A DNA stretch of 64,000 bases from Escherichia coli. Lineage in GTDB: Bacteria > Pseudomonadota > Gammaproteobacteria > Enterobacterales > Enterobacteriaceae. The translations under genes and the position numbers were made by a program. The stretch is taken from NCBI RefSeq assembly GCF_001677475.2, contig NZ_CP015229.1. One strand, 5' to 3'. The notes beneath the pieces are model-generated. The model did no database searches. It was not told the DNA's origin and worked only from the letters and a program-made list of their open reading frames with translations. Positions 46,217-47,212 of this stretch are shown one piece after another. Numbering within the stretch: position 1 is the first letter of the stretch; the number at the start of each line of letters is the position of its first letter.

Positions 46217-47212
46217 TTAATTATATTGTACAGTAAATTGCAATGCGGATTTTACCTCGCCGGTGGTTATGTTATTAACATCGTCAATGTAATAAGCTAC
46301 TTTATATTCGGGTATTGTATAATCACCTGAGCCGATATAATTCAATGCAAAGTTATTGTTAAACTGATCGAATCCGCTTCCATCGGGGTTTTGAAATTGC
46401 ACATATACGCCTTGCGCATAACCGGTTCCGGTCTCACCGTTCATCACGCCATCCACCGAGCCGTGAGTTCCGTATAAGGCGCTAAATTTGTAAGAGATAC
46501 CCGTAATTGCGCCCGGACAATTTGTTAATGTTATTGTAGGTATTGGCGTAGCCAGTTGTGCCCCACTAACTGCATTACCGCCATAAAGTGTTGTAAGGTT
46601 CACTTCTTTTGGAGCATTTATTATGCATGGCGTCATGGTAGGCTGCGAAGAAACTCCTGAGCGTGCAAGAAATGATTTATCCGAATAAGTGCTTCCCGGC
46701 GGGTTGTGATAATTTAATGTGACGTCAGGAACAGTGACAAGAGGTCCTGGCGGTATCTGCTCTGTAAGACGAACTAATTCATACTTGATGTGTAGGTAAC
46801 CACTCTTGCTTAAACCTTCCGGGAAAGTCAGCGTGTGAGGTGCTGCTTTCGCCAAATTTGGTGTGGTATCTGTTGGGGTTGAAAAATTGAGTTGATATGC
46901 AATGCCAATACCTGGATTGCTAGTTTGATATATGGTTGCTCCGTCGCCCGTTGTTCCGACCACCGTCCCATTTACTGTAAGATCGGCATATGCACTGCCA
47001 GAACCTCCGGACGCGATATTGATCCAATAAAATTTATTCCAGTCATCAAACCAGGTTGTTCCACCTACACTCGTTGGTATGCTCCACGTTGAAAAATCAT
47101 GAGGGTAAGTGACTACCTGTGCAGTATCAGTCTGAAATTGCGATGCTGTTGTTGTTAACGGCAGTGATGCAATGCCTGAGATAAGAAAGATGATTACCCT
47201 TTGTTTATTCAT
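46217..47212 (-). CDS. Putative fimbrial tip adhesin (N-terminal receptor-binding domain plus C-terminal pilin domain)
   Basis: ORF 46217..47257; start set at MNKQRVIIFLISGIASLPL (RBS gagga upstream); about 331 aa, twice pilin length; C-terminal half has pilin Cys pair (CIINAPK...TNCPG) and terminal ...LQFTVQYN; sits directly after the usher gene. Confidence 0.65.
   Translation of the reverse strand: MNKQRVIIFLISGIASLPLTTTASQFQTDTAQVVTYPHDFSTWSIPTSVGGTTWFDDWNKFYWINIASGGSGSAYADLTVNGTVVGTTGDGATIYQTSNPGIGIAYQLNFSTPTDTTPNLAKAAPHTLTFPEGLSKSGYLHIKYELVRLTEQIPPGPLVTVPDVTLNYHNPPGSTYSDKSFLARSGVSSQPTMTPCIINAPKEVNLTTLYGGNAVSGAQLATPIPTITLTNCPGAITGISYKFSALYGTHGSVDGVMNGETGTGYAQGVYVQFQNPDGSGFDQFNNNFALNYIGSGDYTIPEYKVAYYIDDVNNITTGEVKSALQFTVQYN

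What the first reader, a model, noticed from the sequence alone, without database searches (positions are those of the whole stretch)
46217..47212. Putative two-domain tip adhesin with an unassigned receptor-binding domain
The gene right after the usher encodes a protein about twice pilin length. Its C-terminal ~150 aa look like a pilin domain (Cys pair CIINAPK...TNCPG, terminal LQFTVQYN). Its N-terminal ~170 aa (QFQTDTAQVVTYPHDFSTWSIPTSVGGTTWFDDWNKFYWINIASGG...) are Trp/Tyr/Gly/Thr-rich and did not resemble FimH, PapG or F17-G lectin domains as I recall them. This is the likely receptor-specificity determinant and the most novel component.
Basis: inference. Interest (0 to 1): 0.7.

Follow-up and report, generated by a model that had tools for sequence, protein, structure and literature searches.

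The report
Sdf-type fimbrial tip adhesin in Escherichia
This gene encodes the two-domain tip adhesin of a rarely carried fimbrial operon already catalogued in Salmonella as Sdf/Sdd; its binding domain has a familiar adhesin fold, but its receptor is still unknown.

Summary
Window 46217-47212 (minus strand) encodes a 331-aa protein directly after the usher of an intact six-gene chaperone-usher operon inserted between fabF and pabC. The C-terminal half (aa 194-331) is a pilin domain with an invariant Cys196/Cys232 pair. The N-terminal 170 aa match no Pfam family and no PDB sequence.

The operon is the Escherichia counterpart of Salmonella sdfABCDEF/sddABCDEF. It has the same pabC/fabF locus, the same gene order, and a predicted adhesin SdfD of 332 aa (53% identical). 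No function has been reported for that cluster.

The exact protein is already in GenBank as "type 1 fimbrial protein [E. coli]". The cassette is absent from 5,426 complete RefSeq E. coli genomes. It is 99-100% identical to the E. ruysiae locus, and a recombination breakpoint lies inside pabC.

Verdict: a real, probably functional adhesin; a new member of a known kind; receptor unknown; modest interest.

The parts
46217..47212 (-). Adhesin gene (sdfD-like), 331 aa plus stop codon
   Evidence: ORF and translation; homologues share this start; dN/dS 0.18 against L001; exact protein is GenBank ANO88407.1 and others
47220..47227 (-). Shine-Dalgarno sequence AGAGGAAA, 7 nt upstream of the ATG
   Evidence: Read directly from the sequence
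47144..47212 (-). Sec-type signal peptide, aa 1-23 (MNKQRVIIFLISGIASLPLTTTA-S|QFQ)
   Evidence: Read from the sequence (basic n-region, hydrophobic core, small residues before the cut); pLDDT below 50 for aa 1-20. No signal-peptide predictor was run.
46634..47143 (-). Receptor-binding domain (RBD), aa 24-193, no cysteines
46895..46924 (-). Most conserved RBD strand, T97-S-N-P-G-I-G-I-A-Y106; shared with Abp2D 'STNIPGIGIR'
   Evidence: T97, N99, G101 and G103 are invariant; lowest entropy in the RBD; HMM alignment to Abp2D
46817..46891 (-). Candidate 'anterior loop' and pocket rim, aa 108-132, with a short helix at 113-115 (inferred binding-site element)
   Evidence: DSSP of the models; highest family entropy, 2.42 bits at aa 114-123; 5 of the 12 RBD differences from L001 fall here; analogy to the Abp/MrkD/GafD loop (PMC9942807). 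Inferred, not shown.
47024..47095 (-). Aromatic-rich loop region, aa 40-63 (W43, W54, F55, W58, F61, Y62, W63); second candidate binding-surface element
   Evidence: Sequence; mostly non-regular secondary structure with high pLDDT. Inferred.
46220..46633 (-). Pilin domain, aa 194-331, with Cys196 (46625-46627), Cys232 (46517-46519) and the C-terminal motif G318...Y330-N331
   Evidence: PF00419 at 194-331, E 0.045; Foldseek to FimA, FimG and FimF, TM 0.6-0.77 normalised to the target; invariant C196, C232, G318, Y330 and N331
47241..49814 (-). Usher (sdfC-like), 857 aa
   Evidence: NCBIfam usher models at 850-874 bits, with Lpf/Sti/Sth-type models highest; 69% identical to the Salmonella counterpart
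49844..50521 (-). Periplasmic chaperone (sdfB-like), 225 aa
   Evidence: NCBIfam fimbrial chaperone, E 1.6e-79
50596..51129 (-). Major pilin (sdfA-like), 177 aa
   Evidence: NCBIfam chaperone-usher fimbrial major subunit, E 5e-30
45686..46210 (-). Minor pilin or adaptor 1 (sdfE-like, FimG-like), 174 aa
   Evidence: NCBIfam FimG, E 3.4e-31, below the curated cut-off
45144..45671 (-). Minor pilin or adaptor 2 (sdfF-like, FimG/FimF-like), 175 aa
   Evidence: NCBIfam FimG E 1.7e-31 and FimF E 2.4e-19
51130..51484 (.). AT-rich upstream region of the operon (34% GC), divergent from pabC; presumed promoter and regulatory region
   Evidence: Composition. One sigma-70-like site on the minus strand at 51250-51223, but promoter-like sites in the region were no more numerous than in shuffles.
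45085..45151 (.). Inverted repeat (hairpin) between the convergent fabF gene and the last fimbrial gene; probably a shared terminator
   Evidence: Inverted repeat I1; core GCGAAACACA/TGTGTTTCGC flanked by an A run and a T run

Best explanation
The gene encodes the tip adhesin (the SdfD/SddD counterpart) of an Sdf-type, gamma-1-like chaperone-usher fimbria.

Shown: it sits in an intact six-gene operon in the order major pilin, chaperone, usher, this gene, and two FimG/F-like adaptors. It has a signal peptide, a self-contained N-terminal beta-sandwich of the fimbrial receptor-binding-domain class, and a C-terminal pilin domain.

Inferred from the established FimH/PapG paradigm: the protein is exported by the Sec pathway, and the chaperone caps its incomplete pilin domain by donor-strand complementation. 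Because it has a binding domain in place of an N-terminal donor strand, it is the first subunit loaded into the usher. The next subunit, one of the two FimG-like adaptors, then completes its pilin domain by donor-strand exchange. This places the binding domain at the distal tip of the fibre.

Inferred more weakly: ligand binding uses a pocket at the distal end, framed by the variable loop aa 108-132 (the equivalent of the 'anterior loop' of GafD, MrkD and Abp adhesins) and the Trp/Tyr-rich loop aa 40-63. My best guess is a glycan or glycoprotein ligand (about 55%), with a protein or matrix ligand next (about 30%).

The cassette moves between Escherichia lineages by homologous recombination at the fabF/pabC site.
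Confidence: 0.82

Rival explanations
1. The N-terminal domain is only a duplicated pilin-like module with a structural role (tip cap or assembly initiator) and has no specific receptor.
Against: Adhesin RBDs rank above every pilin domain and align over more residues (131-151 against ~105-118). The domain folds confidently on its own (pLDDT 96.5), so it does not look like a fold that needs a donor strand. It evolves faster than the pilin domain and is shuffled relative to it, which is typical of ligand-facing domains. Even so, it is under purifying selection (dN/dS 0.19).
Confidence: 0.08
2. It is a protein or matrix-binding adhesin of the MrkD/Abp type (collagen, fibrinogen or other glycoproteins) that uses the same distal pocket, rather than a lectin for a small glycan.
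Against: The best fold matches are lectins: GafD (GlcNAc) and UclD. The critical Arg (Abp R86 / MrkD R105) aligns to Leu108. The many exposed Trp and Tyr residues would suit carbohydrate stacking. This is a sub-variant of the main explanation rather than a contradiction of it.
Confidence: 0.3
3. The operon is a decaying or permanently silent remnant, so the gene has no current function in this strain.
For: Distribution is patchy and rare: absent from 5,426 complete E. coli genomes and found in only 5 species representatives. The upstream region is AT-rich and the cassette contains no regulator.
Against: All six genes are full length. dN/dS is 0.07-0.19 across the operon at dS ~0.2. The cassette is 99-100% identical between E. 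coli and E. ruysiae backgrounds, which indicates recent transfer and retention.
Confidence: 0.1

Closest known systems
Salmonella enterica SdfD / SddD, the predicted adhesin of the sdfABCDEF / sddABCDEF (also 'Smf') fimbrial clusters
   Same: Same chromosomal site between pabC and fabF. Same six-gene order. Same position directly after the usher. Same size (332 against 331 aa). Full-length homology at 53% identity, with the usher at 69% and the chaperone at 62%.
   Different: Identity is only 53%, and 53% in the RBD as well. The host is Escherichia, not Salmonella. Neither protein has a known receptor or phenotype. Within the family, RBDs fall into divergent subtypes that are shuffled against the pilin domains.
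F17-G / GafD lectin domain (PDB 1OIO) and the F17-like UclD (7MZP)
   Different: Identity is 10-13% with no detectable sequence similarity. Conservation of the GlcNAc-binding residues could not be checked. Tamadonfar et al. place GafD in the gamma-4 clade, whereas this operon's machinery looks gamma-1.
MrkD-like receptor-binding domains (Pfam PF22003): Klebsiella MrkD (3U4K), Acinetobacter Abp1D/Abp2D (8DF0, 8DEZ)
   Different: The query itself does not hit PF22003. The critical Arg (Abp R86 / MrkD R105) aligns to Leu. The C2-C48 disulfide is absent. Identity is 11-15%.
LpfD, the long polar fimbria adhesin (PDB 5AFO)
   Different: Identity is 9-10%. The adhesin gave no NCBIfam LpfD hit at E<=0.01. 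The chromosomal locus is different.
FimH, the type 1 fimbrial adhesin
   Same: Same two-domain architecture and presumed assembly logic. Full-length Foldseek E 1.6e-9.

Membership tests
Two-domain chaperone-usher tip adhesins (FimH/PapG/LpfD architecture) | Encoded in an operon with a PapD-type chaperone and a PapC-type usher | tested here: met
   Chaperone E 1.6e-79 and usher E 1e-262, both in NCBIfam; the genes are adjacent and on the same strand
Two-domain chaperone-usher tip adhesins (FimH/PapG/LpfD architecture) | C-terminal pilin domain (incomplete Ig fold, conserved Cys pair, C-terminal Gly...Tyr motif) | tested here: met
   PF00419 at 194-331, weak (E 0.045); Foldseek to FimA, FimG and FimF, TM 0.6-0.77 normalised to the target; C196, C232, G318 and Y330 invariant
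Two-domain chaperone-usher tip adhesins (FimH/PapG/LpfD architecture) | N-terminal self-contained receptor-binding domain in place of a donor-strand extension | tested here: met
Two-domain chaperone-usher tip adhesins (FimH/PapG/LpfD architecture) | Located at the fibre tip and binds a receptor | not testable with these tools
   Needs immuno-EM and binding assays
Sdf/Sdd (Smf) fimbriae of Salmonella | Cluster lies between pabC (aminodeoxychorismate lyase) and fabF (3-oxoacyl-ACP synthase II) | tested here: met
   Window: fabF 43844-45085, operon 45144-51129, pabC 51485-52294. Yue 2012 supplement file 3. Salmonella loci L005-L008.
Sdf/Sdd (Smf) fimbriae of Salmonella | Six genes ABCDEF, with D the double-length predicted adhesin (sdfD 999 nt / 332 aa) | tested here: met
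   Same order and sizes
Sdf/Sdd (Smf) fimbriae of Salmonella | Sequence homology of all components | tested here: met
   Against L005: adhesin 53%, usher 69%, chaperone 62%, minor pilins 61-64%, major pilin 49%. Divergent enough to count as a distinct Escherichia variant.
Pfam PF22003 MrkD-like receptor-binding domain | Significant match to the family HMM | tested here: not met
   The query N-domain has no hit even at E<=10. Among family members, 1 of 32 hits at E<=1e-3 and 17 of 32 at E<=0.1.
Pfam PF22003 MrkD-like receptor-binding domain | Same fold as the MrkD and Abp RBDs | tested here: met
Pfam PF22003 MrkD-like receptor-binding domain | Pocket-base arginine (MrkD R105 / Abp R86) and the N-terminal disulfide | tested here: inconclusive
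   R86 aligns to Leu108, but in an alignment with E 0.016. The RBD has no cysteine. No structural superposition was available.
F17-G / GafD lectin domain | Fold similarity | tested here: met
F17-G / GafD lectin domain | Detectable sequence homology | tested here: not met
   No hit to F17-G or GafD by single-sequence or profile search of PDB sequences; 13% identity in the structural alignment
F17-G / GafD lectin domain | Conserved GlcNAc-binding residues | not tested

The most novel reading that the evidence does not exclude
The receptor-binding domain of this Escherichia Sdf-type adhesin, which is at most 60% identical to any named-organism homologue outside Escherichia and 9-15% identical to any solved adhesin, recognises a ligand that no characterised chaperone-usher adhesin binds. 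The cassette, which is swapped almost intact between E. ruysiae-like cryptic clades and rare E. coli lineages, would then act as a niche or host-range determinant for those lineages.
Probability: 0.3. Interest if true: 0.5.

Novelty: new member of a known kind. Interest (0 to 1): 0.3.

Why it matters
Fimbrial tip adhesins decide which surfaces and hosts enterobacteria colonise, and most of the catalogued ones, including Salmonella Sdf/Sdd, have no known receptor. This work ties an anonymous E. coli "type 1 fimbrial protein" to the named Sdf/Sdd cluster. It assigns the binding domain to the GafD/UclD/MrkD/Abp fold class and points to a candidate pocket region. It also shows that the cassette is exchanged between Escherichia species by homologous replacement at a housekeeping locus. 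Together these give a defined construct (aa 24-193) for receptor screening. The operon type also appears to be missing from the 38-type catalogue of E. coli chaperone-usher fimbriae: none of its 38 column names is Sdf-like and the text does not mention fabF or pabC, but no sequence comparison was made. It does not reveal a new mechanism.

Tried and rejected
(1) EFER_1138 / SARI_01025. Wurpel 2013 describes a type conserved between E. fergusonii and Salmonella but with 'no remnants in E. coli', which looked like a candidate identity. I rejected it. Its supplement places it in the sigma clade, and Yue 2012 shows that SARI_01025 is sdcD of the sigma cluster sdc. Our usher is Lpf/Sti/Sth-like.

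(2) Single-sequence searches with the query found nothing useful: Pfam (weak PF00419 only), PDB phmmer, and NCBIfam models for LpfD, StgD, FimH and BcfD (no N-domain hit).

(3) A tblastn search of the plasmid collection found no match, so there is no evidence of plasmid carriage.

(4) Megablast and blastn against complete E. coli genomes matched only distant usher paralogues (68-71%).

(5) Literature searches for fabF + pabC + fimbrial, and for Salmonella FGC + pabC, gave no hits. The search for 'sdfD/Sdf fimbriae' returned only unrelated acronyms. A whole-word search found only catalogue papers.

(6) There is no sign of a mobile-element insertion: no flanking direct repeats, IS elements or integrase were found.

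(7) No fim-like invertible promoter switch is evident: no recombinase gene and no suitable inverted repeats upstream.

(8) The promoter and terminator consensus scan found no more sites than in shuffled sequence, so it was not used as evidence.

(9) The genome-representative scan relies on two peptide patterns and found only 5 loci. It clearly undercounts, since E. ruysiae and E. marmotae homologues turned up by other routes.

Full report
OBSERVATION. The feature is real. On the minus strand, window 46217-47212 encodes a 331-aa protein. An AGAGGAAA ribosome-binding site lies 7 nt upstream of the ATG at 47212 (sequence). The mechanical ORF runs on to an upstream ATG at 47257, which would overlap the usher stop.

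The gene is the fourth of six co-oriented genes:
- major pilin, 50596-51129
- chaperone, 49844-50521
- usher, 47241-49814
- this gene
- two FimG/FimF-like minor pilins, 45686-46210 and 45144-45671

NCBIfam supports all of these assignments. The quoted Cys pair (C196, C232) and the C-terminal ...YN motif are present and invariant across the family.

WHAT THE PROTEIN IS. By sequence alone it is nearly anonymous. Pfam gives only a weak Fimbrial (PF00419) match to aa 194-331 (E 0.045), and phmmer against PDB sequences finds nothing.

An AlphaFold2 model built on a 32-sequence family alignment is confident (pLDDT 90.3). Foldseek aligns it over 324-370 columns with two-domain chaperone-usher tip adhesins: CupB6 (E 7.6e-10), FimH, FocH, LpfD (query TM 0.49) and PapG, at 10-16% identity. 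The C-terminal half also matches FimA, FimG and FimF.

A profile of the N-domain family weakly hits the Abp2D, MrkD and Abp1D RBD sequences (E 0.016-0.03), sharing a T-N-x-P-G-I-G-I strand. In addition, 17 of 32 family members weakly hit Pfam PF22003, the MrkD-like receptor-binding domain, although the query itself does not.

So the N-domain is neither a second pilin domain nor a new fold. It is a very divergent member of the known adhesin RBD fold class.

HOW BIG IS THE FAMILY. A word-indexed search found 31 clusters. An exhaustive profile search of 1.84 billion representatives found only 21 at E<=0.001, and 15 at E<=1e-10. AFDB50 shows a tight group (E. marmotae, Salmonella, Kluyvera; TM above 0.75). 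Below that there is a sharp drop to generic uncharacterised two-domain fimbrial proteins at 13-20% identity. The RBD subfamily is therefore small.

IDENTITY OF THE OPERON. The operon lies between fabF and pabC. The same six genes in the same order sit between pabC and fabF in:
- Salmonella enterica (L005-L007)
- S. arizonae CCUG 6322T
- a Pluralibacter MAG
- Klebsiella oxytoca NBRC 105695
- Kluyvera georgiana
- a metagenomic enterobacterium

The supplements of Yue et al. 2012 (PMC3373541) list the Salmonella clusters sdfABCDEF and sddABCDEF as flanked by 'aminodeoxychorismate lyase' and '3-oxoacyl-ACP synthase II'. They give sdfD (999 nt / 332 aa) as the predicted adhesin and report no function. 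The Salmonella protein at this locus, P0012, is 332 aa and 53% identical to the query. The window gene is therefore the Escherichia counterpart of SdfD/SddD.

Cheng et al. 2022 class the SddC/SdfC ushers as gamma-1. The main text of Yue 2012 lists sdd and sdf among gamma-4 clusters. Here the usher scores highest on Lpf/Sti/Sth-type models (850-874 bits), then FimD (742), then other usher types (476 or less), which favours gamma-1. Literature searches found only catalogue mentions of Sdf/Sdd and no receptor or phenotype.

IS IT FUNCTIONAL? All six genes are full length. Against the 93%-identical allele on L001, dS is about 0.2 and dN/dS is as follows:
- adhesin: 0.18 (RBD 0.19, pilin domain 0.14)
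- usher: 0.07
- chaperone: 0.14
- major pilin: 0.10

This is purifying selection on a maintained gene, with the adhesin the least constrained component.

Across the family the RBD is much more divergent than the pilin domain: mean pairwise identity is 43% against 62%, and mean column entropy 1.7 against 1.1 bits. The two halves are poorly correlated (r 0.33). Some pairs are grossly discordant, for example P0006/P0021 at 36% in the RBD and 95% in the pilin domain. That pattern indicates domain shuffling, and it is the expected signature of a receptor-specificity module.

MECHANISM. The following steps follow from the established donor-strand complementation and exchange model of FimH/PapG-type pili. 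They are inference, not shown here:
1. Sec export.
2. Chaperone capping of the incomplete pilin domain.
3. First entry into the usher, because the subunit has no donor strand of its own.
4. Completion of its pilin domain by the N-terminal extension of one of the two FimG-like adaptors.
5. Polymerisation of the major pilin beneath.

For binding, Tamadonfar et al. 2023 (PMC9942807) describe a distal pocket in Abp1D/2D, MrkD and GafD, framed by an 'anterior loop' that contains a short helix. In the HMM alignment that loop follows the PGIGI strand. In my models the same strand (aa 102-110) is followed by a short helix at 113-115. The following loop is the most variable segment of the family (2.42 bits at aa 114-123). 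It also holds 5 of the 12 RBD differences from the nearest allele, although I chose that stretch after seeing the data, so this is only suggestive.

I therefore propose a distal pocket bounded by aa 108-132 and the aromatic-rich loop aa 40-63. This is inference. No superposition was possible. The critical Arg of Abp and MrkD aligns to Leu108, and the RBD has no disulfide, so ligand chemistry cannot be transferred from those proteins. I lean towards a glycan or glycoprotein ligand, because the top fold matches are lectins and the loops are rich in Trp and Tyr. Confidence in that is low.

DISTRIBUTION AND ORIGIN. The backbone of the window is E. coli:
- the fab cluster is up to 99.4% identical to complete genomes
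- the remaining flanks are 98.5-98.8% identical at best, which points to a poorly sampled lineage

The operon has no megablast match in 5,426 complete RefSeq E. coli genomes. The more sensitive mode finds only 68-71% usher paralogues. Plasmids give nothing.

Even so, the exact protein is public: ANO88407.1 and others, 'type 1 fimbrial protein [Escherichia coli]', on 43 contigs. Its 90% cluster has 54 members, including Escherichia ruysiae and unclassified Escherichia. Draft E. coli assemblies carry it next to fabF.

The E. ruysiae locus L017 has the operon at the same site. It is 99-100% identical to the window from about 45,000 to about 51,900, and about 96% identical beyond that.

The window's pabC is a mosaic. 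Nucleotides 1-360 are 53-63% identical to E. coli pabC, and from nucleotide 421 identity is about 100%. The odd 5' segment is shared with E. ruysiae. It is about equally distant (54-60% at the protein level) from the PabC of E. coli, Salmonella, Klebsiella and Kluyvera. No IS element, integrase or flanking repeat is present.

The simplest reading has two steps. The cassette entered Escherichia from an unsampled enterobacterial donor by homologous replacement, with end points in fabF and pabC. It has since moved between Escherichia lineages in the same way.

COMPARISON AND NOVELTY. The protein works like FimH, LpfD or F17-G tip adhesins. It belongs to the Sdf/Sdd fimbrial type by locus, gene order, size and homology. 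Its RBD belongs to the GafD/UclD/AtfE/MrkD/Abp fold class but fails Pfam's MrkD-like HMM.

The EFER_1138/sdc lead was tested and rejected, because that cluster is in the sigma clade. The Sdf type does not appear among the 38 E. coli types named in Wurpel 2013. I judged this from the paper's column list and text, not from a sequence comparison.

Overall this is a new (Escherichia) member of a known kind. The receptor is unknown, as it is for most such adhesins.

Noticed in passing
window 51485-52294 (pabC), breakpoint ~51850-51900: pabC is a mosaic. Nucleotides 1-360 are only 53-63% identical to E. coli pabC, then identity jumps to ~100% from nucleotide 421. PabC aa 1-125 is 56% identical to E. 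coli and 54-60% to Salmonella, Klebsiella, Kluyvera and Pluralibacter, so the fimbrial cassette brought in a third, unsampled allele.
   Followed up: yes
window ~45000-51900 against L017 (E. ruysiae GCA_013354405.1): The whole cassette is 99-100% identical to the E. ruysiae locus, while the flanks beyond the pabC breakpoint are ~96% identical. This indicates recent inter-lineage transfer by homologous recombination at a housekeeping locus.
   Followed up: yes
window 1-39600 and 51800-57500: The backbone is collinear with E. coli (mdoGH, mdtGH, flg genes, rne, ptsG and others). Apart from the fab cluster, its best match to any of 5,426 complete genomes is only 98.5-98.8%, so the host seems to be a divergent, poorly sampled E. 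coli lineage.
   Followed up: partly
protein P0050 (identical to the window protein); NCBI ANO88407.1: The exact protein is recorded on a 5.5-Mb contig labelled E. coli, and relatives on 4.4-4.7-Mb contigs. Yet no record in the RefSeq complete-genome E. coli collection carries the operon. The discrepancy is unexplained; the assemblies may be GenBank-only, reclassified, or at a different assembly level.
   Followed up: no
alignment A1 (family of 32 adhesins): There is domain shuffling within the family. For example P0006 and P0021 share 95% identity in the pilin domain but 36% in the RBD, while P0006 and P0017 share 88% in the RBD but 64% in the pilin domain. At least two RBD subtypes exist, with mature N-termini 'xFxTDxAQ...' and 'DYF...'.
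   Followed up: partly
window 50538-50566: A perfect 14-bp inverted repeat with a 1-nt loop (AGGTAAAACCGAGT / ACTCGGTTTTACCT) lies in the intergenic gap between the major pilin and chaperone genes. It may be an attenuator or mRNA-stability hairpin that sets the ratio of major pilin to the downstream genes, as has been proposed for other fimbrial operons.
   Followed up: no
window 45085-45151: A hairpin with an A run on one side and a T run on the other lies between the convergent fabF gene and the last fimbrial gene. It differs from the fabF terminator at the empty E. coli site, so the cassette brought its own.
   Followed up: partly
L002-L004 (metagenome contigs) against the window: Divergence is uneven along the operon in the 74%-identity relative: adhesin 74% and minor pilins 84%, but usher 71.5%, chaperone 66.5% and major pilin 60%. 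This suggests recombination inside the operon as well.
   Followed up: no
L012 (Rahnella bonaserana): The most distant homologue (34-35% identity) lies outside the pabC/fabF context (neither gene was found in the locus). Its best pilin-like matches lie between the usher and the adhesin rather than after the adhesin.
   Followed up: no
literature: PMC3373541 against PMC9238391: The usher clade of sdd/sdf is given inconsistently. The main text of Yue 2012 lists them in gamma-4, while Table 2 of Cheng 2022 lists them in gamma-1. The NCBIfam score pattern here favours gamma-1.
   Followed up: partly
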